DNA from: a virus
Lineage: Duplodnaviria > Heunggongvirae > Uroviricota > Caudoviricetes
Reading direction: 5' to 3' (one strand)
DNA length: 64,000 bases
IMG/VR virus record: IMGVR_UViG_3300033069_001798
Coordinates: 1 to 64,000 of that record
The first letter of the stretch is position 1; each line of letters opens with the position of its first letter. Positions 22,065 to 62,732 of the stretch are shown piece by piece. The notes below the pieces were generated by a model, which saw only the letters and a program-made list of their open reading frames with translations, was not told the DNA's origin and ran no database searches. Made by a program: the position numbers and the translations under genes.

Positions 22065-22076
22065 CCTTGTCGGGCA

Positions 22077-22714: not shown

Positions 22715-22717
22715 AAG

Positions 22718-22957: not shown

Positions 22958-23143
22958 AAGTTCGTGGCTGAACAAGGGACCCATCATAGAGCCCTTGTTC
23001 AGCCACACGTAGTACACGCTCTCGTACTGGTAAGACTTATTCTGGTTCGCAGCTCTTACAGAGATGATGAGACCAGAGTCTTTAGTTGAAACGTATCCGT
23101 TGTTGTTTGCAATCGTGACAAGATCACCAACTTGGAATTTCAT
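22946..23143 (-). CDS. small GDLV-family protein (inverted copy)
   Basis: 'MKFQVGDLVTIANNNGYV…YYVWLNKG'. Confidence 0.45.
   Translation of the reverse strand: MKFQVGDLVTIANNNGYVSTKDSGLIISVRAANQNKSYQYESVYYVWLNKGSMMGPLFSHELLGF
22954..22996. terminator. 15-bp perfect-stem hairpin (gtggctgaacaaggg/cccttgttcagccac, 13-nt loop) at the convergence point of the + and - gene blocks
   Basis: Read directly from the sequence. It starts at the stop of the + gene and overlaps the last codons of the - gene. There is no U-tract. Confidence 0.5.
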
Positions 23144-25505: not shown

Positions 25506-26438
25506 TCATTTAGGTATGTTGAACATCGATGCCATGAGGTCAACGCTAAGATTCTTGTGCTTAGCTTCGACTTCTACGGCGATTGTATCATCCCTAAGCC
25601 CACGGAGCTGACAATCAGGAACATGATGGATGTAGTCGCTATGCTTCCTCCTGTCAATAAATGAACCGTTCAACAATGAAGGCTCAGTGTTTGATATGTG
25701 CTGAAGAGGTATCACACCTTTCGGCCATGTCAACTGTGTTACATTGAACGCTTCGTCAGCAGTTAGCTCGCCGTCGTTGAACGTATGATGGTGCGAATCC
25801 CACACGATCGGCACGCCAGTTTCCTTGTAGACGGGTAGCAAGTCGACGACAGAGTACGCTGACTCATCGTTCTCAAGCGTAAGCCTAGACCGAACAGACT
25901 GTGGCAACGAACGAATGCCATCAACGAGCCGTGAATGACGGTCACCCTTACCACCGTGAATGTTGATTGCTGCGTGCGGCGACCGCGGGAGACCCATGGC
26001 ATCAAAGATCCAGCCATGAAGTGACAACTCGTTGAAAGAATTCTCAACAACGCGGTCAGAATCGGACGATATGACGCAGAACTGACCTGGGTGCGTTGTC
26101 AACCGTATACCACGTGAGATTGCTGCTGTGCCAGCACGCTGCAACTCTGCACGAACCGCAGGATTGTCCCACGTCTTGCGAGGCACTTTATCAGCAAGCG
26201 GGAACAGAGATGACGAAATTCGAAATAGACGAATCCCCGCTGCTGACACCTTGGGTATCATCGCAGCGAGGTTCTTGATGTTGCTGATGTACGTAACACG
26301 GATCTGCTCGTCAGTGTACGCGCCGCGCTGGAACCTTCCCAGCTGCAACGTACGTTCAGACATCTCATTGACGAGAACAGTGTTACCCGTGCGTGGTTGC
26401 ACGTGAGACTTAAGCCAATGGCAGCAAACGCCTAGCAT
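25506..26438 (-). CDS. uvdE: UV damage endonuclease UvdE
   Basis: 'FRISSSLFPLA', 'THPGQFCVISS', 'INIHGGKG', 'RLTLENDESAY' and 'PIVWDSHHH' are colinear with the conserved blocks of UvsE/UVDE. Confidence 0.85.
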   Translation of the reverse strand: MLGVCCHWLKSHVQPRTGNTVLVNEMSERTLQLGRFQRGAYTDEQIRVTYISNIKNLAAMIPKVSAAGIRLFRISSSLFPLADKVPRKTWDNPAVRAELQRAGTAAISRGIRLTTHPGQFCVISSDSDRVVENSFNELSLHGWIFDAMGLPRSPHAAINIHGGKGDRHSRLVDGIRSLPQSVRSRLTLENDESAYSVVDLLPVYKETGVPIVWDSHHHTFNDGELTADEAFNVTQLTWPKGVIPLQHISNTEPSLLNGSFIDRRKHSDYIHHVPDCQLRGLRDDTIAVEVEAKHKNLSVDLMASMFNIPK

Positions 26439-26471
26439 TGATTCAATCTTACATCTGTGCAGATCAAAGTT

Positions 26472-26708
26472 TCACTTCTTCTTGTTGCCAAACACTAGCT
26501 TTTTCAGCATCTTGTTGAACTCTCTAGCCTCACTGACCTTTGCAATACCAATCTTCCCAGGATACTGTAGACGCAGTTGAGCGTAAAATTTCTTCAGCTG
26601 CGCGGGCGTAACAGGCTTCAAGGGCGCGGGCTTAAATTCTCCTTTTTGTTCAGACTGAACCCATTCTAGCTTCGTAGTAAGATCACTAAGGTTTCTAGCG
26701 GTGGACAA
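26472..26708 (-). CDS. small lysine-rich protein
   Basis: Read directly from the sequence. Confidence 0.35.
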   Translation of the reverse strand: MSTARNLSDLTTKLEWVQSEQKGEFKPAPLKPVTPAQLKKFYAQLRLQYPGKIGIAKVSEAREFNKMLKKLVFGNKKK

Positions 26709-28558
26709 AAAGGGGCGTCGCCCTCGGGGCCGCCTCCTTCTTCGTTCTCTTCACCTTCAAGATCTTCAGTGATAGGACCGTTATCGGGCGGATCAGTCTT
26801 CATGGAGTGATCATCAAGTGTTGTCACTTCAGGCGCTGGATCATCCTCGTACTTCTCGAGGCGAGCAACACGCTTCGAGAGCTCGATCGTAGACTCAGAT
26901 GCTTCAGCGGCAGACATGAACCGACGCCTCTTCACGTACTCTTGGATGAAGGCGATGGGCCAATTCTTGACGAGCTCGTAAGCCTCATCAGCGTAAGTTC
27001 CAAGGATCGACCTGACAACATCACCGTCCATTGTCTTCACAAACAACATCTCATCGAAGCGACCAGGGCGAAGGATTGCCTCATCAAGACTGTTACGATT
27101 GTTGACAGTTGCGATGACAAGCTTCACGTGCCTCTGGAAGAACTCGAGCGTCTCGAGCAGCTGCGCCTGCGCATGCGCTCTGTCAAAGTCATCCAAGATG
27201 ATTGCATCGGGTTCAAAGATCGTGATAGCCTCAAAGAGCGTAGAGCTCTCAAGGTTAGCAACATCCTCAACGCGAATTCGGAAGCTGCGCATGCCAAGGT
27301 TCTCCACGATGGTTCGAGCCATCGTAGACTTTCCAGTCCCCGGCGGACCGTACAGCATCACTGACCGCGGCACGTCAGCGTCGATGCACCGCTTCAAGTA
27401 TGCTGCGTACGAAGTTGCTCTCTCAGATGCAAGGGGATGAAAGGCATCGTCAGATTCAAACACGATCCTAGAATCATCGTCAGACGTTCCGACGCGCTTG
27501 TTCTGCCTCATGACGAGGTTTGAATCTTTCAAAGATTCCCACAAGATCTTCTTGATGAGAGCTTGAGCCTCTTTCAACTTCGCAGTGTCAACGTAGATGT
27601 TGCCGGGAACGTTGAGACGGGTGTTCATCGTGTAACCCATCTTGATGCCATCAGCATCGATCATGCGAATGATCGTAGCATCATCGTTGGTGCGAATGTT
27701 CTCGTAAGGATATCGACTGACGACCTTGATGATCGTAGAGTTGAAGTCCCTGCTGTAAGGTGCAGACCACTCATCACCAGAGAAGAAATCATCTCCCCAC
27801 ACTTCAAACTGCTCAATGAGCACTTTGGAGATCGAGAAGCTGCTCTTCAAACCGTTCCACCAGGTGGGATCTTCCAAGAAGGGCGTTGATGCTTGAAAGA
27901 TGTCAGTTCCAACGTGGATGACTTGCTTCACCTTGCTCACGTTGAAGAAATCTCTAACTTGCGTCACTAGCGTCTTGTTCTTTTCAGTCATTTTGTCTCG
28001 TGGTGCTAAAAATTCAACGTTGTAACGAACTCGCTTGTTTGCTTTTGACGTGAAAGTCACGTCGCACTCTTCGTACTTCCCGTCTACGATCGCCGCCCCC
28101 ACGACCTTTGTAACATGCTCATAATCTGGATCGACGTACGTCATGATGAAGAATGCTCGACCCGTTGTCAGGGGTGCTAGTTTCTTGATGACTACGTTCT
28201 CAAAAGAATTCTTTGCAGTGTTTTCAACATCTGACCAATAGATCTTTGGGATGCTGATGAACTCGTAACCTGCTTGTGGGTAAGCGCACCGCTTGCAGAA
28301 ACGAGCGTCATTATCGTTCATCGCCTTGCACTGGCTGCACTCTTTTGCCTCGCCGCAATTGTCATACTCATGAACAACATCGTCGATGAACGTGCAACAC
28401 ATGTCGCCGTGCTCTTCTTGGATGTTCCTTAGATCTGACACCTTCACTTTCAAAGTGCTGTGGAACGTCGTGATGCTATCGATGACAGATTTCTTGGCTT
28501 TGGTGCTTGGTGCCATAAGTTGAAATGTACCCTGCAGATCAGCTATTTTACAAGCCAC
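26666..28558 (-). CDS. AAA+ ATPase with an N-terminal Cys-rich zinc-finger region
   Basis: 'VMLYGPPGTGKST' is a Walker A motif and 'AIILDDFD' a Walker B motif. The N-terminus has 'CSQCKAMNDNDARFCKRCAYP'. Confidence 0.8.
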   Translation of the reverse strand: MACKIADLQGTFQLMAPSTKAKKSVIDSITTFHSTLKVKVSDLRNIQEEHGDMCCTFIDDVVHEYDNCGEAKECSQCKAMNDNDARFCKRCAYPQAGYEFISIPKIYWSDVENTAKNSFENVVIKKLAPLTTGRAFFIMTYVDPDYEHVTKVVGAAIVDGKYEECDVTFTSKANKRVRYNVEFLAPRDKMTEKNKTLVTQVRDFFNVSKVKQVIHVGTDIFQASTPFLEDPTWWNGLKSSFSISKVLIEQFEVWGDDFFSGDEWSAPYSRDFNSTIIKVVSRYPYENIRTNDDATIIRMIDADGIKMGYTMNTRLNVPGNIYVDTAKLKEAQALIKKILWESLKDSNLVMRQNKRVGTSDDDSRIVFESDDAFHPLASERATSYAAYLKRCIDADVPRSVMLYGPPGTGKSTMARTIVENLGMRSFRIRVEDVANLESSTLFEAITIFEPDAIILDDFDRAHAQAQLLETLEFFQRHVKLVIATVNNRNSLDEAILRPGRFDEMLFVKTMDGDVVRSILGTYADEAYELVKNWPIAFIQEYVKRRRFMSAAEASESTIELSKRVARLEKYEDDPAPEVTTLDDHSMKTDPPDNGPITEDLEGEENEEGGGPEGDAPFCPPLETLVILLRS

Positions 28559-28562
28559 AGCT

Positions 28563-29481
28563 TCAAGCGTACTTGCACATCAGCTGCTCACCAAGATCCT
28601 TGAGGAACTGTACACCGTAGTTACCATCACGGCTAGCTTCAAGGTCGGTTTCAAGGAAGCTCGGCAACACTTCGTCAGAGTAGCGTGCAGATGCAATGCC
28701 CCATGCGATCGCAGCGACAGAGTCTGTGTCACCACCCCCAGCTCGCAACTCGAGACATGATACCCGCTAGCGATTTTTCTTCGACAAGCAACGTATGAAC
28801 AGCCCAAGCCGTGTTCCAACCGAGGCCACGATCCCCCGGCTGCTTCGGTCGAGCCTTCACAGGGCCCTCCCAGGGCTTCGAGAAATAATCAAAAGAATCT
28901 AGGTAACGGCTACACCATCCTAGCATGTGATTAAAATCTCGACGATCGTAGAGGGCATAATGCGACATCAATGCAACAGCGATCGAGGAGTTGATGCCAC
29001 CCCACGTGGCATGCGTCGTAGCTGCTTGCAACCCAGCGTAGCGAACGACGGCATCTGGATCTTTGATGACGCCTATGGGAACCGAGCGCATCGCTGCACC
29101 GTTCTTGTCGGAATTTGGTTGAAGCTTCAGCTTCAGCTCATCACCGTTCTTCGAAGACTCTAGTAGCTCTTGCATCGCTCTGCTGTAACCATCGCGTGGA
29201 TCTCTTGCATGAACTTCCCAAAATTTGCCAACAAAATCAACGGCGCTGGGTGATTCGCTGGTGCACAGCAACTCTGCGATCGCAATGCTCTGCTGGGTAT
29301 CATCTGAGTACCAGCCCGGTTTCATCAGCTCGTACGTTGGGTGCTGAACGTAACGATTCATAGAGCCAACAGCTTCAAAAAGCTCGCCATGCTTCTCTTT
29401 ATCGATGAATTCGATGCCCAACGCCAATGCATCTGCTTGCGCAATGCGCAGCAGCATGTTGCTGTTCTTACGTCTCATCAT
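28563..29481 (-). pseudogene. ADP-ribosylglycohydrolase (ARH family) split by a frameshift at a G5 run (or a sequencing error)
   Basis: The 250-aa ORF 28729-29481 has the N-terminal ARH motif 'AQADALALGIE'. The C-terminal ARH motif 'GGDTDSVAAIAWGIA' lies in the next frame (ORF 28563-28748). The frames meet at minus-strand 'GCTGGGGGTGGTGA' (plus strand 28729-28740). Deleting one G restores '…SWGGDTDSVAAIAWG…'. Confidence 0.6.
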
Positions 29482-29726
29482 AGGTGCCTTATGAAGGTTC
29501 GAAGCACGAAGAAAGAATCACCCAACGAAGGAACGATGACTTTTGCGTAATCTGGTCCCAAGTGCGTGAGGATGCACATCGTGTTCTTTTTCAGAATTAC
29601 ACCACGTGTGCCGCTGTCGTTCTGAACAAACGTATCCCAAGAAACGTAACACAATTCTGTTTCTATCAATTGCGTCACCTTCAACGTAAAACGTGCAACG
29701 AATTCGCTTACTGGGCTTAGCCCCAT
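29478..29726 (-). CDS. hypothetical small protein
   Basis: Fills a slot in the minus-strand operon; ATGA junction. Confidence 0.3.
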   Translation of the reverse strand: MGLSPVSEFVARFTLKVTQLIETELCYVSWDTFVQNDSGTRGVILKKNTMCILTHLGPDYAKVIVPSLGDSFFVLRTFIRHL

Positions 29727-30049
29727 CGTCGATGAGGTCTCCTGTTCCTGTCAACGTTGCCATCCAGCGCATCGTTCAAAATTTGGGACGCAATTGACCA
29801 CAAATCTTCTTCTGAACGAACCCTTCTGTTGAACTGCGCGTTCTGAACTTTGGCTCCAGCATCGTCTAGGCCAATGCGCTGGAGCTCTTCACCGAGCCAG
29901 TTAGCAGTCGTTATCACTTCTTTAGTTCTGACATCGCATGACCAGTTCGCCGGTCTTCCAGCGCTGTGCCCAGCGAATAGTCTTTCAATGTTGCGCTGAA
30001 CGTTCTCTCTGACCATGTCAGGAGAATAGCGCGGTGCTACTTTTTCCAT
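29717..30049 (-). CDS. hypothetical protein
   Basis: ORF adjacent to Fpg. Confidence 0.4.
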   Translation of the reverse strand: MEKVAPRYSPDMVRENVQRNIERLFAGHSAGRPANWSCDVRTKEVITTANWLGEELQRIGLDDAGAKVQNAQFNRRVRSEEDLWSIASQILNDALDGNVDRNRRPHRRWG

Positions 30050-30052
30050 CTT

Positions 30053-30868
30053 CTACTTCTGTCTTTTTGGACACCAGTAAGTTGTTCGACCGTCAGCGGT
30101 CGCTTTTTTTTCTACTGGGAATCCATGAGGATCAGTGACTTGATTGTACACTGAAAATCTGTCTGATATCCATGATGTGCCATCCGGACCCACAGAATAA
30201 GCCCCACCGAGCTCGTACGACAGGTTCATCATCATTATGATAGCTGATCGTAGGTCAGCAAAGTCTTCGTGGGTTAGCGACGAAACTGGACGATGCGGTG
30301 ATATCTTCGCAGCATACAAAGATTCACACTTCAAGTAATTACCGACGCCAGAGACGCAGCTTTGGTCCATCAGAGCCTCAGCGATCGTTCGATTGCTCTT
30401 GAACATCATGCGCTCGATGAATTCTTCATCATCCGGTGGTGCGTTAAGCATGTCAGGACCTATTGACTTCAGCTTTGAAGCTAGCGCTTCGGCAGAAGAC
30501 GTGAAGCTCAACGTCCCGAATCGACGCTGGTCAATGAACGTCGTTGTCAACTCATCAGACATGATTGACATGACAGCGTGCCCAGCCGTGGGCCGCGTCG
30601 TCCACTTTCCCGTCATCCCGTAGGTGCACATCATGTACCAATCGGGCTCAAGATCTTTCTTGAACGTCCACCATGAGAACTTTCCCTTTACGCGAGCTGC
30701 TTCCATCATGTAGCCATCACGAACAGCAGAGGCGAAATTTTGGTAACCAGCGGGCTCTTTCGAAGAGTAACGACCAGTGTTGTGCAGCTGAACGGCACGA
30801 ATGATCTCACCGCTGAACAGGTTGTTGATCTCTTCGACGCTCAACGTGACTTCAACACCCTCGGGCAT
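30053..30868 (-). CDS. Fpg/Nei-family DNA glycosylase (formamidopyrimidine/endonuclease VIII-like)
   Basis: N-terminal 'MPEGVEV' carries the catalytic Pro2 and Glu3. The H2TH segment is 'GVGNYLKCESLYAAKISPH'. The C-terminus has only one Cys pair, which suggests a zincless finger. Confidence 0.8.
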   Translation of the reverse strand: MPEGVEVTLSVEEINNLFSGEIIRAVQLHNTGRYSSKEPAGYQNFASAVRDGYMMEAARVKGKFSWWTFKKDLEPDWYMMCTYGMTGKWTTRPTAGHAVMSIMSDELTTTFIDQRRFGTLSFTSSAEALASKLKSIGPDMLNAPPDDEEFIERMMFKSNRTIAEALMDQSCVSGVGNYLKCESLYAAKISPHRPVSSLTHEDFADLRSAIIMMMNLSYELGGAYSVGPDGTSWISDRFSVYNQVTDPHGFPVEKKATADGRTTYWCPKRQK

Positions 30869-31198
30869 TCATCCCTCCAGCGCAGCAGCACCGGCCGCCG
30901 CGGCATTGTAGAACCTGACATCGACATTGTCTGATGCCTTGAAAAGAAACCACTGGTTGAGCGTCTCGTCCCAAGCGTGGATCGTTCCATCTTCATCGAT
31001 CTTGTGAATCTCGCAAGATGAAGTGTGAGGACGAGCATGGCGCAACCGAGTCACCAAGATCTTGCTACCAACTGGTGCTAGCAGCACGCCGTCCGCGATC
31101 GCAGGCACTGTCTTTGGATCGATCTTCACTCTCTTCTTTCGTGGAGCCTTCGGCGCTTTCTCTTTAACGCGTTCAGCGATCTTCTTTGCGTTGCTCAT
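30869..31198 (-). CDS. hypothetical protein with a basic N-terminus
   Basis: 'KAPKAPRKKRVKIDPK'. Confidence 0.4.
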   Translation of the reverse strand: MSNAKKIAERVKEKAPKAPRKKRVKIDPKTVPAIADGVLLAPVGSKILVTRLRHARPHTSSCEIHKIDEDGTIHAWDETLNQWFLFKASDNVDVRFYNAAAAGAAALEG

Positions 31199-31619
31199 GT
31201 TTCTTTATCCAGTCGTAGTATATGCCCAACGCACCGTCTGACGGGCGGTCGCTACCCACATCGCATTGGAAGAACATCTTCCATGATCTCCAACCGTACT
31301 CACCGATACCGGGCAGCTCCCGGGCATCTGACCAAGATTTGCTCACGTAAGCCTTTGTCATTGACCTGATCGTGGCTTCGCGACGATTCTTGAATCCAAG
31401 CGACCGGATCAAGTCAGCGACTTCAGCTGGGGAGCTCTCCAAGTACTTCTCAGGCGTTGACCAACGAGACATGAATTCAGGTAGGATCTTTTCTACCTGC
31501 GTTCTCTTCGTCCGGTTCAGCATGATGCAGCTGACGAGGACGAGCCATTCATTGGGCCATAGAGATTCTTGTATGAGACTGTGAGGACTTGCTAGCGGTA
31601 TCATACCACTTGCCAACAT
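31173..31619 (-). CDS. HhH-GPD DNA glycosylase, MBD4 glycosylase-domain-like
   Basis: 'WLVLVSCIMLNRT…AEVADLIRSLGFKNRREATI…ELPGIGEYGWRSWKMF' parallels the MBD4 catalytic domain ('WKLLIATIFLNRT…HGIGKYGNDSYRIF'). Confidence 0.7.
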   Translation of the reverse strand: MLASGMIPLASPHSLIQESLWPNEWLVLVSCIMLNRTKRTQVEKILPEFMSRWSTPEKYLESSPAEVADLIRSLGFKNRREATIRSMTKAYVSKSWSDARELPGIGEYGWRSWKMFFQCDVGSDRPSDGALGIYYDWIKKHEQRKEDR

Positions 31620-31643
31620 TGTAATTCGTCTAGCTGAGCAAGT

Positions 31644-32318
31644 TCATCTGCCGTACTTCTTGTCAAAGTACGTGTTACCAAGTTGGTACAGAACATTTTC
31701 TAGCGATGATTGCTTCACGTCGTGCTTTGCCAGCTGCTGAGCAACTTCACCATGCCTTTGGATCAAGCTTGATTTTGCCGCGCTTTGTCCTGGCCCGTCG
31801 TAAGAGTAGTTCAATACCTTGTTTGGATCTTTCACAAGCTCGCAGTCATCGCATTCTTCTGGTGTCTTTGGATCATCACGATCATCAAACGGTTTCTTGT
31901 CAACGTCGCTGCGCTTCGAAGAGTAATATTGCCACAACTTCTCGGCAGAAGAATTTGTCGATACCCTGTCTGGCATCAAGCCACCGTCGCCGTCGCTCAT
32001 GACAATATCGTACATGAGCGGACCGTAACCTTTAGACGCTGCAGATCGATGAACTTCGATAGCGTCATTGCACTCGTCAGAGTGTGGGATGGCTTCGATG
32101 AAACCGTAGATAAATTCATCGAGAGGTTTGGAGAATCGCATGCTCCAGAAACCCGGTTCTTGCATGACAGACGCTAGAGTCTTGGGCTCGTAAAGAACGT
32201 AGTAAATCTTACCTTCTCGCTGTCCCCTATAAAGAGCTAGCCCAGCATCTATAGCTTGATCTCCGCCCACTGCTGCTTCAATGAGGTGTGATATGTACGA
32301 CTTCAAGTGTTGCTTCAT
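31644..32318 (-). CDS. hypothetical protein
   Basis: ORF. Confidence 0.5.
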   Translation of the reverse strand: MKQHLKSYISHLIEAAVGGDQAIDAGLALYRGQREGKIYYVLYEPKTLASVMQEPGFWSMRFSKPLDEFIYGFIEAIPHSDECNDAIEVHRSAASKGYGPLMYDIVMSDGDGGLMPDRVSTNSSAEKLWQYYSSKRSDVDKKPFDDRDDPKTPEECDDCELVKDPNKVLNYSYDGPGQSAAKSSLIQRHGEVAQQLAKHDVKQSSLENVLYQLGNTYFDKKYGR

Positions 32319-32878
32319 AGGATTCCCACCCTCTTGAACAGCTTTCGATTGTAGTCGCTGAAAGATCCTTGCAGGAGAACAGCGGGTTCAACCCACTTCA
32401 CCACACCAGATTCATCAGTGTCAACGTTACCCATGACTGAGCAAGAGTAAGTCGTCACGAAGTAACCAGCATCATCTTTCTGCGAGAACACTTTTGTTAG
32501 ATTTACAGCAGTGTAACCAGTCTCTTCTTCAAGCTCTCTTGCAGCGGCTTCAACCTCAACCTCACCAGGATCCACTTTCCCACCCGGCAATCCAAAATCG
32601 TTTGGATCATCTTTCCTAGAGACTGCCAAGATCTTTCCGTTTGGGTTCCTAACAAGAACGCATGCAGCTCGCGGGGCATTCAAAGCTGCGAGCGTCTCGT
32701 CTTCTTCGTCATTTGCCAACGAACCACCCACTTCGACGTTTGTTATCGGCGGTCGAGGATCTGTCAACATCTCACGGATGAGCTGCTTCAGAAGCTTAAC
32801 TTCTTTGGTTCTGGAAGTGGACATGATTCGATCTGATCGCAGCTCGTTATGTTCTTGACGCAAGACGGAGCGAGCCAA
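32315..32878 (-). CDS. Nudix hydrolase
   Basis: Nudix box 'GLPGGKVDPGEVEVEAAARELEEETG'. Confidence 0.8.
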   Translation of the reverse strand: MARSVLRQEHNELRSDRIMSTSRTKEVKLLKQLIREMLTDPRPPITNVEVGGSLANDEEDETLAALNAPRAACVLVRNPNGKILAVSRKDDPNDFGLPGGKVDPGEVEVEAAARELEEETGYTAVNLTKVFSQKDDAGYFVTTYSCSVMGNVDTDESGVVKWVEPAVLLQGSFSDYNRKLFKRVGIL

Positions 32879-33169: not shown

Positions 33170-33517
33170 TCAAATTTCTCTCAAGTACCCAAACTTAGCA
33201 TTGATGAGCCCAACAAGCGCTGAATCTGTTTCCTTGAAATCATTGTTGTGCTTGCGGAATAGCTTCGCGTACTTTGAAGATGCATAATCGATGATCTCAC
33301 GTCTGATATTATCAGGCAGAGGTTCATCATTGATCTCTTCTGTCTTTCTGATCCAGAAAACGGCAGCAGTGCGACCATTTGATGCTAGCGACGGCGCCAT
33401 GTGCCTCTTTAGCCGGGCGATGAACTTTGTGTCAAGCTTGAGCTCAGCAATGATAGTTGAGACGTACTCTTTCAGCAGCTGTTGATCGCTCATGTACCCT
33501 CCAAAAACGGTACCCAA
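33170..33517 (-). CDS. hypothetical protein
   Basis: ORF. Confidence 0.45.
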   Translation of the reverse strand: MGTVFGGYMSDQQLLKEYVSTIIAELKLDTKFIARLKRHMAPSLASNGRTAAVFWIRKTEEINDEPLPDNIRREIIDYASSKYAKLFRKHNNDFKETDSALVGLINAKFGYLREI

Positions 33518-47905: not shown

Positions 47906-48197
47906 CCTTAAATATGACCTTGCGGCCAGACAATTCCGACCAACGTGCAGCCAATGCTCTATCTACCTTTGTGATGACGCGCTTCTTAAGCACAGGATCG
48001 TAAGAATTCAACGCAGGCCTCATCTCAACGCGCATGTTGAGCAGCAACTGCTTCTTTATTGCCGACCATTCGTCAAGAAAACCAGCGTAACGGAAGACAT
48101 CAATGACAACTTGATCGTACTCAGGATCAAGCTCATCGCTGTCTTCATCATCCATGCTGAGAGCTCCAGATTGCCTTGATCGCCTCGATACCTTCAT
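47868..48197 (-). CDS. hypothetical protein with an acidic N-terminus
   Basis: ORF. Confidence 0.4.
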   Translation of the reverse strand: MKVSRRSRQSGALSMDDEDSDELDPEYDQVVIDVFRYAGFLDEWSAIKKQLLLNMRVEMRPALNSYDPVLKKRVITKVDRALAARWSELSGRKVIFKGDEKPTQQKDPT

Positions 48198-48639
48198 GGA
48201 TGACTGACTCCTGGTACCGAACGAGACCCGGCAGCTCTGAAACCTTGAACCACCGAACGTCTGCTACTTCCGAATCTGGATCGCTGGCGTCTGGGTGGTT
48301 GTCGCACGTCTGCACGGCCAAGTAAGTCACAACTGTCTTCTCTTCCTTCTTGTAAGAAGCCAGCGTGTCAGTCAATCGCATCCCGAGCTCAACGTCGATG
48401 CCAGTTTCCTCTTTGGTCTCGCGGATCGCGCACTTCTCGATTGTTTCGCCAGGATTGATGTGACCCTTGGGTACGCCCCAATTTCCCTTCTTGGAAAATT
48501 GCTTCACCAAGAGGATCTCGGTATCAATCCACTGCGGCGCCAACCGGTACGTCAACGTTCCGCAGGACGTCGTCTTAACAATAGACTTCTTCTTGCCGCT
48601 CATGCTCCTATGATACACCAAGCATGGGTAATTGAACAC
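48148..48639 (-). CDS. Nudix hydrolase
   Basis: Nudix box 'GHINPGETIEKCAIRETKEETGI'. Confidence 0.75.
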   Translation of the reverse strand: MFNYPCLVYHRSMSGKKKSIVKTTSCGTLTYRLAPQWIDTEILLVKQFSKKGNWGVPKGHINPGETIEKCAIRETKEETGIDVELGMRLTDTLASYKKEEKTVVTYLAVQTCDNHPDASDPDSEVADVRWFKVSELPGLVRYQESVIHEGIEAIKAIWSSQHG

Positions 48640-59182: not shown

Positions 59183-59741
59183 GAACTAAGACTGCTCCTC
59201 CTCCGCCGACGCCTCCATCACCTGCTCGATCAGCTGGAGGTGCAGTGAATTCATCTTCCATTTCATCCCTTGACTTACCGATCTCCATGCCATGCTCGTT
59301 GCGAAGCTGCTCTTTGAATGAATCAGCAACTGACTCATCGTAATTCTTCGACAAGAAGTTTGACGCCCTACGCAAGATCGTATTTCTAACTTCTAGCAAG
59401 GAGTCGTAGTTGTCTATCAACCTGACAACGCCGTTGACAAAAGAGCCCACGTCAATGTCTTCAACAGTAAGCTTCTTTGGTTCATCGCTAGAATCATCAC
59501 CCTTGTCGTCATCTTCACCAGCTTCAACGATTCGACGCACAGTCATTCGCCAATCGCGACCCTCGGTCTTTGCGGACTTTGCTTCTTTTTCATAGTCATT
59601 CAAGTAACGATCGACCTGAGAGTCTAGTGAATCTTCTCCCGGCTCTTCTGTTGGTGGCGTTGGCGCTTCGCCTTCTTCTCTGAGAATCTCTTCTCTTAGA
59701 ACACGCCGAAGATCACCCAAGCGAACCTTAAAAGTCTTCAT
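59172..59741 (-). CDS. hypothetical protein with the shared N-terminal motif (VRLGDLRRVLREEILREEGEAP)
   Basis: Read directly from the sequence. Confidence 0.55.
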   Translation of the reverse strand: MKTFKVRLGDLRRVLREEILREEGEAPTPPTEEPGEDSLDSQVDRYLNDYEKEAKSAKTEGRDWRMTVRRIVEAGEDDDKGDDSSDEPKKLTVEDIDVGSFVNGVVRLIDNYDSLLEVRNTILRRASNFLSKNYDESVADSFKEQLRNEHGMEIGKSRDEMEDEFTAPPADRAGDGGVGGGGAVLVHEI

Positions 59742-60454
59742 GACTTCACCGCCACGCCGATTGCTTCAGCTCTCTTAAAACGATCTTCGCAAACTTCCCA
59801 ATTGATCTCTCTCATCTGAGCGATCAAGTAGCTCTTCTTATCGGTCAAGTAGTCTCTAGCGTATGCATGCTCCCACATGTCGACAACGATCACTGGGTAG
59901 AAGCCTAGTGGGATATCTCCACTGTGGTGGCTGATTGGAACGTTGATGTACTTCTTCAAGAAAGTGTGGTACCCGCAAACAGCCCATCCATTTCCAGCAG
60001 CCATGGCACATGCGATGAAGTCACGTTGCCAATCTTCGAACGTTCCGAAGTCTCTCTGCAGCTTGATGTAAGCGATTGAATCCATCACGATCTCAGAATG
60101 AGGATCGTAGCAGTTCGCAAAGTACAGCTCATGAAGCCACACAGCATTGAGGTTGTACGCTTCATCAAGCTTCAATGACCTGAAGTCACTGTGCTTTGAA
60201 TTTGAAGCGCCCCTGTCAGCAGTGTCAAGCTGCGCAGAAACATTGTTCAACGTGTCAACGTACTCACGGTAAAGAGTTGTGTGCGCTTCTTTGGTCTTCT
60301 GCGAAACCATCTCAGAGACTTGCTTGAACGGCTTCGGTTCTGCAACGTAGGACTCGTTGATCTTTCCAACTTCTTTCACTGCAGCGGAACGCGATAGCGC
60401 ATCTCTGATCGTCTTATCAAGGTCTAGACCTTCCAGTATGTTCTTTTTGCTCAT
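59738..60454 (-). CDS. sodA: Fe/Mn superoxide dismutase
   Basis: 'HTTLYREYV', 'NAVWLHELYF' and 'DMWEHAYARDY' match 'H..HH..YV', 'N…nH..fw' and 'DvWEHAYYldY'. Confidence 0.8.
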   Translation of the reverse strand: MSKKNILEGLDLDKTIRDALSRSAAVKEVGKINESYVAEPKPFKQVSEMVSQKTKEAHTTLYREYVDTLNNVSAQLDTADRGASNSKHSDFRSLKLDEAYNLNAVWLHELYFANCYDPHSEIVMDSIAYIKLQRDFGTFEDWQRDFIACAMAAGNGWAVCGYHTFLKKYINVPISHHSGDIPLGFYPVIVVDMWEHAYARDYLTDKKSYLIAQMREINWEVCEDRFKRAEAIGVAVKS

Positions 60455-60879: not shown

Positions 60880-62199
60880 TCATCTTGATTCATTTGAGAA
60901 ATCTACTAGATCCTGATAAGAATCAACTTGAATTCCAGCTTCACGAAGCAATTTTACACCAGTTGAATTTCTGTACTTTTGCAAGTACACGATTCTTCCA
61001 ACTCGACTGTTAATTAGACTTTTTGCACACATTATGCATGGAGATGTAGTTACGTAAACTGTGGAATTTTCAAGAGATTCAGATGCGTGAGAAATGGCAT
61101 TAATTTCTGCATGAATGCAACCACAAGAACCTGGTGTTAGGGAATCACAGCCATTAAGCCCTCCAGAATTTGATCCATTGTAGCCCAGGCATAGAACGCG
61201 TTCATTATGTTGATCAACAAAAACTGCGCCAACTCGCAATCTGCAACATGTTGATCTTTTTGCAAATGCAACTGCAACATGCATCCAAATAGAATCATAT
61301 GACGATCTACTGAATGTGCCTATGTCATTTTCATAGTATTCATGAATTTTTTCAATAGGTTCAAGATCGCGTTCATAAATCACGCGAAATTCAATGTTCT
61401 TGTTGGAATAAAAAGATCTAGCGGCTTCGATCTTTTTATTCGTATGTTCATTAACGTAGCCCTTAATCTCTTCAACGACCACGATATTAGAGTCATAATT
61501 GATGAAGAGATCAGGATTGTAATAGTGTGCATTACCTTCTTCATCAGACCAAAGAATTTTATCTTTACATCTACCCCATGCTAGAACTGTATTGTCAAAA
61601 TCCAGTTCTTTGAATCTTCGTAGCTCATAGCTAGAATCGTAATGAACTGTTCCAGCCTTTGTTGACTTGTATCTTCCTTTAAGAAAGTTCTTGTTAAAAT
61701 TTTCTGGTTCGTAAGATCTTTTGTAACAATCACGAGAACAATAACGATCATAATGATGTTTCAGATTGCTTTTCACAAAGTTTGAACAATCTTTTCCACT
61801 GCATTGCACTACAATTTTATTTTGTGAATGAAATGCTAGATAACATTCTCTATCACAAAAACAATTTGCATGCGCAACAATTGTTGAACGATAACGAAAA
61901 TTTGTTTTGTTACACCAAGAGCAATTTACTTGAACATGCGTTATAGATTTTTGTTCAGCTTTGTTGTGCAAAGCGCTACATTTTCTTGAACAAAACTTTC
62001 TTCCATTGTCAGCATAACACTTCAAAACATTGAATGCAGAATTACATTGAACGCATTTAATGGTGACTCGTTTGCTTTTCTGGAAGCATGTTTTTGAACA
62101 GTAATCATTTTTTGACTTTTTTTTGCCATGACAAATAGGACACAAATCTATTTCAGATTGAATCATGTTAGCACTATGAAAGGATGACATCGCAAGCAA
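60880..62199 (-). CDS. fusion protein: 4x Cys-rich zinc-finger repeats, a PD-(D/E)xK nuclease-like segment and a dCMP deaminase domain
   Basis: C-terminal 'CIHAEINAI…TSPCIMCAKSLINSRVGRIVY' is a dCMP/cytidine deaminase HAE…PCxxC signature. The middle 'YNPDLFINYDSNIVVVEEIKGY' fits the PD…(D/E)xK pattern. The N-terminus has four repeats of 'CxxC…(Y/F)CSRxC'. The whole gene is AT-rich. Confidence 0.7.
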   Translation of the reverse strand: MLAMSSFHSANMIQSEIDLCPICHGKKKSKNDYCSKTCFQKSKRVTIKCVQCNSAFNVLKCYADNGRKFCSRKCSALHNKAEQKSITHVQVNCSWCNKTNFRYRSTIVAHANCFCDRECYLAFHSQNKIVVQCSGKDCSNFVKSNLKHHYDRYCSRDCYKRSYEPENFNKNFLKGRYKSTKAGTVHYDSSYELRRFKELDFDNTVLAWGRCKDKILWSDEEGNAHYYNPDLFINYDSNIVVVEEIKGYVNEHTNKKIEAARSFYSNKNIEFRVIYERDLEPIEKIHEYYENDIGTFSRSSYDSIWMHVAVAFAKRSTCCRLRVGAVFVDQHNERVLCLGYNGSNSGGLNGCDSLTPGSCGCIHAEINAISHASESLENSTVYVTTSPCIMCAKSLINSRVGRIVYLQKYRNSTGVKLLREAGIQVDSYQDLVDFSNESR

Positions 62200-62732
62200 C
62201 GCGGCTCGTATAGCTCGTGCCCGCCAACTTCAAGCAACGTTTCATCTTCGCTCTTCTTGTACGTAAAATGAGCATCTTGCGAGCAGATCGTGCACACTGC
62301 TGAGCACTTCTCTATTGACGTTGCCCAAGGCAGCATCTTTGTCACTTCATCGAACGGCTTACCATTGAATGCAGTGTCAAGCGTTGACACTATGATGTTG
62401 TAGCCGTTCCTGTACAAGAACGTCAAAGCATCAGCAACGCCGTTAATCATGAAAGCTTCATCTACTGCGATGATGCTAATGTCGTTGTTCTGCTCTTCAA
62501 GAACTTTCGCAAGAATACCTTCTGCGTTATTGACAGTGACTGCATCGTGACGCCAACCACCGTGCGTCACGATCTGAGACGTAGAGTAGCGATCATCTAT
62601 CGCAGGCTTGAAAACTAGAGCGTTTCTCTTCTGGTACTTGCAACGCTCAAGCTCCATCAACAATCGAGATGATTTTGATGACCACATGGGTCCGACGTAC
62701 ATCACGAATGTTGGATTAGCTTGCTTGCTCAT
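62163..62732 (-). CDS. tdk: thymidine kinase
   Basis: 'VGPMWSSKSSRLL' is a P-loop. C-terminal zinc ligands 'CTICSQ…CLRCH'. Confidence 0.85.
   Translation of the reverse strand: MSKQANPTFVMYVGPMWSSKSSRLLMELERCKYQKRNALVFKPAIDDRYSTSQIVTHGGWRHDAVTVNNAEGILAKVLEEQNNDISIIAVDEAFMINGVADALTFLYRNGYNIIVSTLDTAFNGKPFDEVTKMLPWATSIEKCSAVCTICSQDAHFTYKKSEDETLLEVGGHELYEPRCLRCHPFIVLT

What the first reader, a model, noticed from the sequence alone, without database searches (positions are those of the whole stretch)
25506..32878. DNA-repair island with UvdE, AAA+ ATPase, ARH, Nei/Fpg, MBD4-like HhH-GPD glycosylase and Nudix; a full base-excision-repair toolkit with PolX, FEN and ligase nearby
This is an unusually complete base-excision and alternative-excision repair set for a virus. 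It has two glycosylases of different superfamilies, a UV-damage endonuclease, a minimal Pol X at 43588-44145, a flap endonuclease at 35648-36841 and ligase-like enzymes.

The MBD4-like glycosylase domain is notable. MBD4 acts on T:G and 5hmU:G mispairs, which hints at modified-pyrimidine handling. The phage may protect or process a chemically modified genome, or survive in a high-damage niche.
Basis: partly seen in the sequence, partly recalled or inferred. Interest (0 to 1): 0.6.

Follow-up and report, generated by a model that had tools for sequence, protein, structure and literature searches.

The report
Phage repair module for modified cytosine
A giant uncultured bacteriophage carries a conserved set of DNA-repair genes whose core, an MBD4-type mismatch glycosylase paired with a NEIL1/Mimivirus-type Nei enzyme, appears built to mend deaminated 5-hydroxymethylcytosine in the phage's own chemically modified genome.

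Summary
On the minus strand of 25.5-32.9 kb lie UvdE, a classic AAA+ ATPase, an ARH3-like ADP-ribosylhydrolase (frameshifted here, intact in a 98%-identical relative), a zincless Nei most like Mimivirus Nei1, a stand-alone MBD4-type HhH-GPD glycosylase and a Nudix hydrolase. Upstream lie a PolA-type FEN and a 185-aa palm+thumb Pol X, confirmed by fold. The 'ligase' is a T4 Rnl2-type RNA ligase. I found no DNA ligase, Xth/Nfo or 3'-phosphatase.

The set is not a one-off island. It is a syntenic module of a large clade of uncultured huge phages, with contigs up to 369 kb.

- The window ends in a T4 gp42-type dCMP hydroxymethylase (Cys148 and Asp179 kept).
- Relatives add an NDP-sugar epimerase and a UDP-glucose pyrophosphorylase.
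- Among cultured phages the MBD4-like gene occurs only in the Xp12 group (5mC DNA, next to its Asp-type thymidylate-synthase homologue) and in S-TIM54 (Asp-type 'ThyA' plus DNA alpha-glucosyltransferase).
- MBD4L and Nei are adjacent or overlapping in diverse huge phages.

Best reading (confidence 0.55): base-excision repair of hmU:G (T:G in 5mC phages) arising from deaminated modified cytosine, plus UV and oxidative repair. All functions are inferred from homology.

The parts
25506..26438 (-). UvdE/UvsE UV-damage endonuclease (310 aa)
   Evidence: PF03851 7.7e-53; TIGR00629 above its curated cut-off; phrog_8420 3e-52. Homologues at 45-63% identity in 24 IMG/VR loci.
26666..28558 (-). AAA+ ATPase of the classic clade (FtsH/PAN/Cdc48-like). 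The ATPase domain covers residues 400-507. The N-terminal 380 aa are unassigned and contain a Zn-ribbon-like CxxC...CxxC. Probably protein remodelling rather than repair.
   Evidence: PF00004 2e-16; weak NCBIfam FtsH, PAN and CDC48 hits. Conserved between ARH and UvdE in relatives.
28563..29481 (-). ADP-ribosylglycohydrolase, ARH3/DraG family, split by a +1 frameshift at about 28745 (28729-29481 plus 28563-28748)
   Evidence: PF03747 2e-26. Intact 304-aa ORF in relative L002, with a one-base difference in a G-run. Best PDB match is human ARH3 at 1e-10.
29717..30049 (-). g110, conserved small ORF downstream of Nei; no known domain
   Evidence: No Pfam, PHROG or NCBIfam hit. Homologues in the same position in L052, L055-L058.
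30053..30868 (-). Nei/NEIL1-type bifunctional glycosylase/AP lyase with a zincless finger (271 aa)
   Evidence: H2TH plus Fapy N- and C-terminal domains. Best PDB match is Mimivirus Nei1 (3A45/3A46/3VK7) at E=1.5e-34 over the full length, against 1e-18 to 1e-11 for bacterial MutM. MPEG N-terminus, the KGKF Lys and the RTTYW Arg are kept; no CxxC...CxxC.
30869..31198 (-). g109, small basic-tailed ORF that overlaps the end of the MBD4-like gene and always follows it in relatives
   Evidence: No family hit. 17 distinct homologues immediately downstream of MBD4L in related loci.
31173..31619 (-). Stand-alone MBD4-type HhH-GPD mismatch glycosylase (148 aa, 'MBD4L')
   Evidence: phmmer against the PDB hits MBD4 glycosylase domains at E=3e-19, gapless, 31% identity. 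Equivalents of Gln449, Arg468, Tyr540 and the catalytic Asp560 are present. In 22 family members N35, T37, G104, G106, Y108 and D128 are invariant.
31644..32318 (-). g224, probable divergent GNAT-fold acyltransferase; function unknown. In one relative it lies next to the hydroxymethylase.
   Evidence: No HMM hit. AF2 pLDDT 89.6. Only weak Foldseek hits to GNAT acetyltransferases (E 0.02-0.2). Two copies upstream of HMase in L030.
32315..32878 (-). Nudix hydrolase 1, subfamily undetermined. The real start is probably the ATG at 32824.
   Evidence: PF00293 3e-20; weak MutT, NudE and NudG NCBIfam hits. Conserved upstream of MBD4L in relatives.
35648..36841 (-). PolA-type 5'-3' exonuclease / flap endonuclease (397 aa)
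   Evidence: PF02739 1e-16. Conserved upstream of MBD4L across the clade.
36796..37668 (-). GIY-YIG/NUMOD3 homing endonuclease (36796-37479) preceded by a 62-aa duplicate fragment of the FEN N-terminus (37480-37668)
   Evidence: PF01541 6e-11 and NUMOD3. The fragment matches FEN in a within-window blastp and in L001.
37655..38677 (-). T4 Rnl2-type RNA ligase (340 aa); the only ligase-like gene
   Evidence: PF09414 1.5e-12; phrog_548 7e-37; PDB 2HVQ 1.4e-6 spanning both domains. PolX-Rnl2-FEN are consecutive in L087.
43588..44145 (-). Minimal family-X DNA polymerase (185 aa, palm+thumb only)
   Evidence: GSxRR motif and the carboxylates D39/E41/D93 are invariant in 32 homologues. AF2 pLDDT 96.6. 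Foldseek hits Thermus Pol X and Pol lambda at E 3.5e-10, TM about 0.7.
48148..48639 (-). Nudix hydrolase 2
   Evidence: PF00293 1.9e-21. Conserved between CN-hydrolase and PolX in relatives.
59738..60454 (-). Fe/Mn superoxide dismutase homologue
   Evidence: Sod_Fe_C 1e-17. Conserved in the order HMase-TK-dCD-SOD.
60880..62199 (-). dCMP deaminase domain (C-terminal) fused to a Cys-rich, TnsA-like N-terminal region
   Evidence: PF00383 2.8e-23; Tn7_TnsA-like_N 5e-5.
62163..62732 (-). Thymidine kinase
   Evidence: PF00265 1.3e-40.
63487..64000 (-). T4 gp42-type dCMP hydroxymethylase. The N-terminus runs off the window; it is full length (219 aa) in relative L026.
   Evidence: phmmer against the PDB hits 1B49/1B5E at E=2.5e-57, against about 1e-9 for ThyA. 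Cys148 and Asp179 are kept.

Best explanation
The region is the repair part of a long, co-oriented replication and nucleotide-metabolism arm of an uncultured huge phage. Its DNA most likely carries 5-hydroxymethylcytosine, probably further glycosylated.

**Core.** The core is a gene pair found adjacent or overlapping in many huge phages. One partner is a stand-alone MBD4-type monofunctional mismatch glycosylase. The other is a NEIL1/Mimivirus-Nei1-type glycosylase/AP lyase.

**Proposed mechanism (all steps inferred from homology; none is shown biochemically)**
1. Spontaneous or enemy-inflicted deamination of hmC gives hmU:G (T:G in 5mC phages such as Xp12). The host's uracil glycosylase does not remove this lesion.
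2. MBD4L flips out and removes the hmU or T opposite G.
3. The abasic site is cut either by the Nei lyase (beta,delta-elimination) or 5' by UvdE.
4. The 185-aa Pol X refills the gap.
5. The FEN trims any 5' flap or dRP.
6. The nick is sealed by the Rnl2-type ligase or by a host or other phage DNA ligase.

**Additional roles.** The same downstream enzymes would serve UvdE-initiated repair of UV dimers and Nei-initiated repair of oxidised pyrimidines. The Nudix enzymes and SOD plausibly limit damaged precursors and ROS.

**Probably unrelated to BER proper.** The AAA+ ATPase, the GNAT-like protein and the ARH sit in the module but probably are not part of BER.
For: **1. Identity of each enzyme.**

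**2. Conservation.** The following order recurs in IMG/VR contigs of up to 369 kb and in an ENA contig: HMase-TK-dCD-SOD-...-CNhydrolase-Nudix2-PolX-(Rnl2)-FEN-g154-(papain)-Nudix1-MBD4L-g109-Nei-g110-ARH-AAA-UvdE-GroEL.

**3. MBD4L and Nei travel together.**
- They co-occur in 27 of 73 MBD4L loci.
- They lie less than 1 kb apart, or overlap, in distant lineages: L088, L091, L100, L104, L107, L109, L111 and L228.
- By comparison, Fpg-family genes are rare in phages generally.

**4. Link to C5-modified cytosine.**
- T4-type dCMP hydroxymethylase with Cys148 and Asp179 lies in the same window.
- HMase and MBD4L lie within one 20-kb locus in L205 and L206.
- An NDP-sugar epimerase sits upstream of HMase in the 98% relative.
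- A UDP-glucose pyrophosphorylase abuts MBD4L in L225.
- Among 50,697 cultured or deposited phage records, MBD4L is found only in two clear lineages.
  - The Xp12 group has 5mC DNA (PMC7653180). The gene there lies two genes from an Asp-type TS homologue and dCMP deaminase.
  - Cyanophage S-TIM54 has an Asp-type 'ThyA' alongside ThyX and an annotated DNA alpha-glucosyltransferase.
- Every TS-family gene seen next to an MBD4L gene (L048, L075, L118, L121) has Asp at the T4 D179 position.

**5. The family looks phage-specific.** One hit was found in 185,579 species-representative genomes, and that contig carries the same phage module.

**6. Established biochemistry.**
- MBD4 excises T, U and 5hmU opposite G.
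- E. coli MutM, Nei and Nth excise hmU:G (Hori 2003, cited in PMC2673420).
- From my own knowledge: NEIL enzymes process TDG products, and S. pombe UVDE works with the FEN-1 homologue Rad2 and also cuts at abasic sites.
Against: - No direct evidence exists that this phage's DNA is modified.
- HMase lies 32 kb from MBD4L in the window.
- No T-even-type phage appears among the MBD4L matches in the phage collection.
- Many MBD4L loci show no TS-family gene within 10 kb, for example the L099 group, which sits among PolB and RNR genes.
- A contig-level phyletic test could not be completed; the scan was truncated.
- The Arg468 'finger' is Cys in most family members.
- If hmC is glycosylated, the deaminated base may not fit an MBD4-like pocket.
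- No DNA ligase, Xth/Nfo or 3'-phosphatase was found, so the pathway as drawn is incomplete. A Nei delta-elimination product would need a 3'-phosphatase.
- The second catalytic carboxylate of the Pol X is Glu, not Asp.
Confidence: 0.55

Rival explanations
1. Generic self-sufficiency. Huge phages with long infection cycles or sunlit, oxic habitats carry their own UV, oxidative and deamination repair. MBD4L then acts mainly as a U:G or general mismatch glycosylase, and the hydroxymethylase in the same arm is coincidental.
For: - UvdE occurs in 107 cultured jumbo-phage records irrespective of known modification.
- SOD, two Nudix enzymes and Nei fit an oxidative-stress theme.
- The MBD4L-Nei pair in L228 and the L099 group shows no visible modification gene within 10 kb.
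Against: - The only two clear cultured lineages with MBD4L both carry Asp-type TS homologues, and one has proven 5mC DNA.
- In Xp12 the gene lies two genes from the 5mC-synthesis genes.
- The whole clade carries Asp-type TS enzymes at a fixed position.
Confidence: 0.25
2. Counter-defence. The module repairs lesions that host immunity inflicts on phage DNA.
- Abasic sites made by Brig1-type glycosylases acting on glucosyl-hmC would be handled by Nei, UvdE, PolX, FEN and a ligase.
- Enzymatic deamination would be handled by MBD4L.
- DNA ADP-ribosylation would be reversed by the ARH, with Nudix clearing the ADP-ribose.
For: - Host glycosylases that excise modified cytosines from T4 DNA exist (PMC11078745, found).
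- An ARH3-like hydrolase and a Nudix are conserved inside the module.
- AP-site-processing enzymes are abundant in the module although only two glycosylases are present.
Against: - No known anti-defence domain was detected.
- The ARH is frameshifted in this very genome, so it is dispensable at least here.
- Nothing ties the ARH to DNA rather than protein substrates.
- This reading is compatible with the best explanation rather than exclusive of it.
Confidence: 0.12
3. A phage 'GO system'. Nudix, Fpg-family enzyme and HhH-GPD enzyme would stand in for MutT, MutM and MutY, handling 8-oxoguanine.
For: - The three superfamilies match those of MutT, MutM and MutY and lie within 3 kb.
- The Nudix has weak MutT hits.
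Against: - The HhH-GPD protein aligns end to end with MBD4 at 3e-19 but only at about 0.09 with adenine glycosylase. At 148 aa it has no room for MutY's C-terminal domain.
- The Fpg-family enzyme is closest to Mimivirus Nei1, a Nei/NEIL1-type enzyme, not to MutM.
Confidence: 0.04
4. Chance juxtaposition of unrelated accessory genes with no shared function.
For: - Unrelated genes are interleaved: AAA+, GNAT-like, lipoprotein, papain-like protease and lysozyme-like.
- Homing endonucleases shuffle this region.
Against: - Order and content are conserved at 40-65% protein identity over dozens of contigs.
- The MBD4L-Nei adjacency recurs in unrelated huge phages.
Confidence: 0.03

Closest known systems
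Eukaryotic MBD4 (glycosylase domain) and the TDG/MBD4-NEIL axis of 5mC/5hmC deamination and demethylation repair
   Same: - Same fold and catalytic Asp. 31% identity, gapless over 136 aa, with Gln449, Arg468, Tyr540 and Asp560 equivalents present.
- It is paired with a NEIL1-like enzyme, as TDG is functionally paired with NEIL1/2 (own knowledge).
- The predicted lesions, T:G and hmU:G, are the deamination products of 5mC and 5hmC.
   Different: - No methyl-CpG-binding domain; a stand-alone 138-150 aa protein.
- Lys562 is Ala here, and the Arg finger is Cys in most family members.
- The context is a phage genome in which, by inference, cytosines carry a C5 modification, rather than one bearing a sparse epigenetic mark.
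- Activity is untested.
Mimivirus base-excision repair set (Nei1 L315, Pol X, UV-damage endonuclease)
   Same: - The Nei is most similar to MvNei1 (E=1.5e-34, full length, zincless finger).
- A virus encodes Nei, Pol X and UvdE together.
   Different: - This is a bacteriophage lineage: PolA-type FEN, T4-type HMase and Rnl2, GIY-YIG/NUMOD3 homing endonucleases and bacterial IF-1.
- The Pol X is a 185-aa palm+thumb minimal enzyme.
- No AP endonuclease or DNA ligase was found.
- An MBD4-type glycosylase is added.
African swine fever virus Pol X (174 aa minimal polymerase)
   Same: A family-X polymerase reduced to palm and thumb, lacking the 8-kDa lyase and fingers domains, and encoded near other repair enzymes.
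   Different: - ASFV Pol X did not appear in the sequence searches; the similarity is to Thermus Pol X and Pol lambda.
- The second catalytic carboxylate is Glu.
- The host is bacterial.
Xanthomonas phage Xp12 gp61 ('hypothetical protein', ENDO3c-like) and relatives
   Same: - Same MBD4-like family (27-28% identity over 86%).
- It lies in a phage with fully C5-modified cytosine, two genes from an Asp-type TS homologue and dCMP deaminase.
   Different: - Xp12 is a 64-kb siphovirus with 5mC, not hmC.
- No Nei, UvdE or Pol X partner appeared there in the Fpg or PolX searches.
T4 DNA modification pathway (gp42 dCMP hydroxymethylase, dCMP deaminase, glucosyltransferases) and T4 Rnl2
   Same: - The HMase is a clear gp42 homologue (2.5e-57), with dCMP deaminase and TK nearby.
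- The ligase is an Rnl2 homologue.
   Different: - No T-even-type phage appears among the MBD4L or Fpg matches in the phage collection.
- No gp56-type dCTPase or T4-type glucosyltransferase was recognised in the window.

Membership tests
MBD4-type HhH-GPD glycosylase domain | Helix-hairpin-helix with a Gly-rich loop, followed by the catalytic Asp (GPD motif) | tested here: met
   G104-I-G106-x-Y108 and D128 are invariant in 22 family members; D128 aligns with human Asp560.
MBD4-type HhH-GPD glycosylase domain | End-to-end similarity to the MBD4 catalytic domain rather than to Nth, MutY or OGG1 | tested here: met
   E=3e-19 to 15 MBD4 chains over residues 8-143. The next best are the Mig-type enzyme 1KEA at 9e-5 and EndoIII at 0.01.
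MBD4-type HhH-GPD glycosylase domain | Base-pocket and intercalating residues (Gln449, Arg468, Leu508, Tyr540, Lys562 in human numbering) | tested here: inconclusive
   Gln, Arg and Tyr are kept in the window protein. Leu508 is Phe and Lys562 is Ala. The Arg is Cys in most relatives.
MBD4 (whole protein) | N-terminal methyl-CpG-binding domain | tested here: not met
   The protein is 148 aa, the glycosylase domain only. It is therefore MBD4-like, not an MBD4 orthologue.
MBD4-type HhH-GPD glycosylase domain | Excision of T, U or 5hmU opposite G | not testable with these tools
   Needs a glycosylase assay.
Fpg/Nei (H2TH) glycosylase/AP lyase | N-terminal Pro-Glu nucleophile pair, conserved Lys, H2TH motif | tested here: met
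   MPEG N-terminus, KGKF and the H2TH domain at 6e-16; full-length alignment to MvNei1.
Fpg/Nei (H2TH) glycosylase/AP lyase | C-terminal zinc finger (CxxC...CxxC) of bacterial Fpg and Nei | tested here: not met
   The C-terminus reads ...DGRTTYWCPKRQK, with no cysteine pairs. It aligns with the zincless finger of MvNei1, RTTYWAP. It therefore belongs with the NEIL1/MvNei1 subgroup.
UvdE/UvsE UV-damage endonuclease | Score above the curated equivalog threshold over the full TIM-barrel | tested here: met
   TIGR00629 136.7 bits (cut-off 124.45); PF03851 covers 8-274 of 275.
Family X DNA polymerase | Palm with GSxRR and three carboxylates, plus thumb; fold match | tested here: met
   G28-S29-x-R31-R32, D39, E41 and D93 are invariant. 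Foldseek top 50 are all Pol X or Pol lambda, E down to 3.5e-10. The second carboxylate is Glu rather than Asp.
Family X DNA polymerase | 8-kDa dRP-lyase and fingers (HhH) domains | tested here: not met
   Only 185 aa. The alignment covers Thermus Pol X residues about 164-320. It is a minimal form of the ASFV Pol X type.
T4 gp42 deoxycytidylate hydroxymethylase | TS fold with nucleophilic Cys148 and cytosine-specifying Asp179 | tested here: met
   E=2.5e-57 to 1B49. DFICT and YRND motifs are present; C148 and D179 are invariant in 9 clade members.
Complete base-excision repair pathway | Glycosylase, AP-site incision, gap-filling polymerase and flap/dRP removal | tested here: met
   MBD4L and Nei; Nei lyase and UvdE (the latter's AP activity is inferred from the family); Pol X; FEN.
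Complete base-excision repair pathway | DNA ligase, and a 3'-end cleaning enzyme (Xth/Nfo or PNK phosphatase) | tested here: not met
   None among the ORFs of 150 aa or more in the window. The only ligase is Rnl2-type. The rest of the genome was not available.
ADP-ribosylglycohydrolase (ARH/DraG) | Intact ORF carrying the N-terminal DALG, DDT and C-terminal GGDTD metal-binding motifs | tested here: inconclusive
   All three motifs are present, but in two frames in the window (+1 frameshift). The gene is intact in relative L002.

The most novel reading that the evidence does not exclude
Phages that replace cytosine with a C5-modified form (5mC in Xp12, hmC or glycosyl-hmC here) have their own, previously undescribed base-excision pathway. 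It would be dedicated to the deamination products of the modified base.

The pathway would comprise:
- a phage-specific, stand-alone MBD4-type glycosylase;
- a NEIL1/Mimivirus-Nei1-type lyase translationally coupled to it;
- a 185-aa minimal Pol X, a FEN, and possibly an Rnl2-type ligase.

This would be a prokaryotic-virus counterpart of the eukaryotic TDG/MBD4-NEIL axis. It would also be a candidate evolutionary relative of the eukaryotic MBD4 catalytic domain and of the giant-virus Nei.
Probability: 0.35. Interest if true: 0.8.

Novelty: new variant of a known kind. Interest (0 to 1): 0.66.

Why it matters
**A cost of base substitution, and a possible remedy.** Fully substituted genomes protect phages from restriction, but they carry a chemical cost. 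5mC and 5hmC deaminate to T and hmU, which uracil glycosylase does not remove. Every such event is therefore a potential C-to-T mutation. If the reading is right, these genes show how phages pay that cost, and they explain why an 'epigenetic' eukaryotic enzyme fold turns up in viruses of bacteria.

**A genomic marker.** MBD4L, with or without Nei, could flag phages with C5-modified cytosine in metagenomes.

**Compact enzymes.** The module offers a 148-aa T/hmU:G glycosylase, a zincless Nei and a 185-aa Pol X. These could be useful for modified-base sequencing chemistry.

**Testable questions.**
- Cooperation between a monofunctional glycosylase and a Nei lyase.
- Ribonucleotide-patch sealing by Pol X plus Rnl2.
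- Gene exchange between huge phages, giant viruses and eukaryotes.

Tried and rejected
1. **Megablast of the island against 50,697 phage records.** No match. There are no close cultured relatives.
The 80 loci kept did not include even the known relatives, so it was useless for an intersection.
3. **CN-hydrolase as a bridge.** A single-sequence scan found only the near-identical contig. The alignment-based repeat worked.
4. **Structure prediction of Pol X with an alignment built from fetched loci.** It was redone with database homologues.
5. **Profile search of Pol X against PDB sequences.** Weaker than the single sequence (2.4e-4). The fold search settled the question.
6. **The 446-aa ORF upstream of HMase in the relative, suspected to be a glycosyltransferase.** No Pfam or PDB sequence hit. 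Unresolved.
7. **g224.** Only a weak GNAT resemblance. Not assigned.
8. **Promoter and terminator scan of 23-39 kb.** Counts did not exceed shuffled controls. It says nothing about operon structure.
9. **Pfam on neighbours of a distant MBD4L lineage (L099, L103, L114).** This found PolB, RNR and adenylate kinase but no modification gene. Neutral for the hypothesis.
10. **Literature.** No paper in the held library links an MBD4-like or Nei glycosylase to modified-cytosine phages. The MetaGPA supplement, stored truncated, lists Thymidylat_synt and dCMP deaminase but no HhH-GPD.
11. **Readings rejected.** MutY-like GO system, giant eukaryotic virus origin of the window, and DNA ligase function for 37655-38677.

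Full report
**1. What is there**

From about 64 kb down to 23.5 kb the window is one densely packed minus-strand gene array. GC skew changes sign near 21-23 kb.

- UvdE, 25506-26438: PF03851 7.7e-53; NCBIfam equivalog TIGR00629 above its cut-off.
- AAA+ ATPase, 26666-28558: only residues 400-507 are the ATPase module. The weak NCBIfam hits are FtsH, PAN and Cdc48, the protein-unfoldase clade.
- ADP-ribosylglycohydrolase, 28729-29481: PF03747 2e-26.
- Fpg/Nei enzyme, 30053-30868.
- HhH-GPD protein, 31173-31619.
- Nudix, 32315-32878.
- Outside the stated interval: a PolA-type 5'-3' exonuclease/FEN (35648-36841), a GIY-YIG/NUMOD3 homing endonuclease, an RNA-ligase-family protein (37655-38677) and the small Pol X candidate (43588-44145).

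**2. Refinements of individual genes**

*MBD4-like glycosylase.* The label is correct, and strikingly so.
- phmmer against all PDB sequences finds 15 MBD4 glycosylase-domain chains at E about 3e-19.
- The alignment is gapless over 136 residues at 31% identity.
- The next families are far behind: the Mig-type enzyme at 9e-5 and EndoIII at 0.01.
- The catalytic Asp (human D560) and the equivalents of Tyr540, Gln449 and Arg468 are present. Lys562 is Ala.
- The protein has no MBD domain.

*Fpg/Nei enzyme.* It is not a MutM.
- Its best solved relative is Mimivirus Nei1 at E=1.5e-34 over the full length. Bacterial MutM scores 1e-18 to 1e-11.
- It has the MPEG N-terminus and the conserved Lys and Arg, but lacks the four-cysteine zinc finger.
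- It is therefore a NEIL1/MvNei1-type 'zincless finger' enzyme.

*Pol X.*
- GSxRR and three carboxylates (D39, E41, D93) are invariant across 32 homologues.
- The AlphaFold model is very confident (pLDDT 96.6).
- All top Foldseek matches are Thermus Pol X and human Pol lambda palm+thumb, E down to 3.5e-10, TM about 0.7.
- At 185 aa it lacks the 8-kDa and fingers domains. It is a minimal Pol X of the ASFV kind.

*Ligase.* It is a T4 Rnl2 homologue covering both domains, not a DNA ligase.

*ARH.* It is closest to human ARH3 (1e-10). In this window it is broken by a one-base insertion in a G-run. The 98%-identical IMG/VR contig has an intact 304-aa gene.

*ORF 31644-32318.* This 224-aa ORF has no HMM hit. 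A confident model shows only a faint GNAT resemblance.

*What is missing.* No Xth/Nfo, DNA ligase or PNK-type phosphatase was found among the ORFs of 150 aa or more.

**3. It is a conserved module, not a private island**

UvdE, MBD4L and CN-hydrolase were used as probes of IMG/VR. tblastn and phmmer of the window's proteins were then run on the fetched loci. The same gene order recurs in dozens of viral contigs of 30-370 kb at 40-65% protein identity:

HMase - TK - dCMP deaminase - SOD - ... - CN-hydrolase - Nudix2 - PolX - (Rnl2) - FEN - g154 - (papain) - Nudix1 - MBD4L - g109 - Nei - g110 - ARH - AAA - UvdE - g107 - GroEL.

- A near-identical contig (IMGVR_UViG_3300033121_002167, 81.6 kb) differs mainly by homing-endonuclease insertions.
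- There is no close cultured relative. Megablast finds nothing, and UvdE and Pol X reach only 24-34% identity to cultured jumbo phages.
- The lineage is a bacteriophage. It has PolA-type FEN, T4-type enzymes, GIY-YIG/NUMOD3 endonucleases, bacterial IF-1 and PHROG matches.
- Its major-vault-protein homologue matches only the 462-735 kb 'uncultured phage' records LR756500/1/3. GroEL (LR756501/3) and UvdE (LR756502) also match records of that series.

**4. The MBD4L-Nei pair**

- Of 73 viral loci with an MBD4L gene, 27 also show the Nei gene within the fetched flank.
- In lineages well outside the window's clade the two genes are less than 1 kb apart. These are L088, L091/092, L100, L104, L107, L109 and L111.
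- In L228 they overlap by 8 nt. L228 is a different huge phage that carries DnaE, isocitrate lyase, malate synthase, PEPCK and glutamine synthetase.
- Fpg-family genes are otherwise very rare in phages: 26 of 50,697 records, several of them apparent host contamination.

The pairing of a monofunctional glycosylase with a glycosylase/AP lyase is the most robust signal in the data.

**5. Link to modified cytosine**

The window's last ORF (63487 to the window end) is a T4 gp42-type dCMP hydroxymethylase.
- E=2.5e-57 to PDB 1B49, against about 1e-9 for thymidylate synthases.
- The nucleophile Cys148 and Asp179 are present. Asp179 replaces the Asn of true thymidylate synthases at this position and specifies cytosine.
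- Next to it are thymidine kinase and a dCMP deaminase.

Further evidence from relatives:
- In the near-identical contig, the gene immediately upstream of HMase is an NDP-sugar epimerase/dehydratase (PF01370 7e-53).
- In another clade member a UDP-glucose pyrophosphorylase abuts MBD4L. Both suggest sugar decoration of hmC.
- HMase and MBD4L lie in a single 20-kb locus in two relatives, L205 and L206.
- Clade members that lack the T4-type enzyme carry another Asp-type TS homologue of about 340 aa at the same place.

Independent evidence comes from deposited phage genomes. tblastn with MBD4L hits only 17 of 50,697 records.
- Fourteen are the Xanthomonas phage Xp12 group. Xp12 DNA carries 5-methylcytosine (PMC7653180).
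- One is cyanophage S-TIM54.
- Two are partial matches in an archaeal virus, annotated in one record as an adenine glycosylase.

In Xp12 the gene (gp61, annotated 'hypothetical') is followed by a HAD hydrolase, a 'thymidylate synthase' with Asp at the key position, dCMP deaminase and DHFR.

S-TIM54 has both ThyX and a 'ThyA' with Asp at that position, plus an annotated DNA alpha-glucosyltransferase.

Every TS-family gene seen beside an MBD4L gene in metagenomic loci (L075, L118, L121) is also Asp-type. The Asn-type genes in the same data are not adjacent to MBD4L.

The MBD4L family seems confined to phages. A scan of 185,579 species-representative genomes gave one hit. That contig, binned as a Bdellovibrionota MAG, carries the same phage module.

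**6. Mechanism proposed**

All steps are inferred from family biochemistry.
1. Deamination of hmC (or of 5mC in Xp12) yields hmU:G (or T:G). Uracil glycosylase does not remove these lesions. They are exactly the substrates of MBD4.
2. E. coli MutM, Nei and Nth also excise hmU opposite G (Hori et al. 2003, listed in PMC2673420).
3. MBD4L would remove the base. The Nei lyase, or UvdE acting 5' of the abasic site, would incise.
4. The minimal Pol X would fill the gap and the FEN would trim.
5. A ligase would seal the nick. Candidates are the Rnl2-type enzyme, which sits between Pol X and FEN in L087, or a DNA ligase encoded elsewhere or by the host.
6. UvdE plus FEN gives the classical alternative excision route for UV dimers. 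Nei covers oxidised pyrimidines. SOD and the Nudix enzymes fit damage avoidance.

I put 0.55 on this reading. The main rivals are:
- generic self-sufficiency in repair with no special tie to modification (0.25);
- repair of host-inflicted lesions as counter-defence (0.12);
- a MutT/MutM/MutY-like GO system (0.04);
- chance (0.03).

**7. Weak points**

- Modification of this phage's DNA is inferred, not shown.
- Many MBD4L loci show no TS gene within 10 kb.
- My attempt at a contig-level phyletic test failed for technical reasons.
- No T-even-type phage appears among the MBD4L matches in the phage collection.
- A glycosylated hmU might not fit the pocket.
- The pathway lacks a recognised DNA ligase and a 3'-phosphatase.

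**8. Novelty**

- Each enzyme family is known. UvdE in jumbo phages is already noted in the literature (PMC7824862).
- JGI's automatic annotation already names some of these proteins 'methyl-CpG-binding domain protein 4'.
- In the searchable literature I found no description of three things:
  - a phage MBD4-type glycosylase;
  - its coupling to a NEIL1-type Nei;
  - its association with C5-modified-cytosine genomes.
- I therefore rate the finding a new variant of a known kind (virus-encoded BER), with moderately high interest.

Noticed in passing
window 12034-14775 (+): A 913-aa ORF with major vault protein domains (MVP_shoulder 2e-30, Vault repeats, Band_7) lies in a locally GC-rich stretch (0.55-0.56 against about 0.49). 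Its only matches in the phage collection are the 462-735 kb 'uncultured phage' records LR756500/1/3, at 45% identity.
   Followed up: partly
window 230-11700 (+), 21860-23140, 42210-43140 (-): Arrays of about 50 tightly packed small ORFs (55-120 aa). Nineteen of them begin with an N-terminal x-P-G-D-L-V-like motif, which suggests a large paralogous family of small proteins. Only a few pairs are detectable by blastp.
   Followed up: partly
window 36796-37668 (-); L001 5064-7043 and 7658-9302; L026 2040-4386: GIY-YIG homing endonucleases sit beside partial duplicates of their target genes.
- Window: a FEN N-terminal fragment.
- 98% relative: a diverged full Nudix plus an 88-aa identical fragment, an insertion of about 1.1 kb in the papain-like gene, and a C-terminal fragment of the 446-aa ORF.
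These are footprints of active intron-less homing.
   Followed up: partly
window about 28745 (within 28563-29481, -): A one-base insertion in a G-run splits the ARH gene; the relative is intact. This is either a real pseudogene or a homopolymer assembly error.
   Followed up: yes
window 23535-25160, 33490-34296, 62752-63309, 26666-28558 (-): A proteostasis set is scattered through the same arm: GroEL (2e-64), a papain-family C1 cysteine protease (1e-18), an HslV-like peptidase (phrog_1040 1.5e-15) and the FtsH/Cdc48-like AAA+ ATPase.
   Followed up: no
window 20788-21297 (-): Translation initiation factor IF-1 homologue (PF01176 2.5e-18) inside a 169-aa ORF.
   Followed up: no
window 60880-62199 (-): The dCMP deaminase domain is fused to a 300-aa N-terminal region rich in CxxC repeats, with a weak TnsA-like endonuclease hit.
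   Followed up: no
window 54928-55683 (-): A carbon-nitrogen hydrolase (nitrilase superfamily, 1e-26) is highly conserved across the clade (63-78% identity). It was useful as a synteny anchor. Its role in a phage is unexplained.
   Followed up: partly
L224 (JBBAUR010000009.1, 'Bdellovibrionota bacterium' MAG, 89 kb contig): The only genome-collection hit for MBD4L carries the same phage module: FEN-g154-papain-lipoprotein-Nudix1-MBD4L-g109-g224. It is either a mis-binned phage contig or a hint at the host.
   Followed up: partly
L228 (ENA ERZ27251096 k141_2376824, 61.8 kb): A different huge-phage-like contig has an overlapping MBD4L-Nei pair. It also carries malate synthase, isocitrate lyase, PEPCK, glutamine synthetase, a SET-domain protein and DnaE-type Pol III alpha.
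   Followed up: no
L207 668-1696, L215 3454-4470, L219 3892-4881: Some clade members carry a TS-family protein of about 340 aa in place of the T4-type hydroxymethylase. It is closer to the Xp12 enzyme and also has Asp at the cytosine-specifying position. This may indicate a different C5 modification within the same clade.
   Followed up: partly
L048 7914-10519 (Xanthomonas phage Xp12 gp61-gp58): The Xp12 MBD4-like gene is annotated only as 'hypothetical protein'. It sits directly upstream of the HAD hydrolase, the Asp-type 'thymidylate synthase' and dCMP deaminase. The HAD homologue also accompanies hydroxymethylases in many IMG/VR loci, L032-L047.
   Followed up: partly
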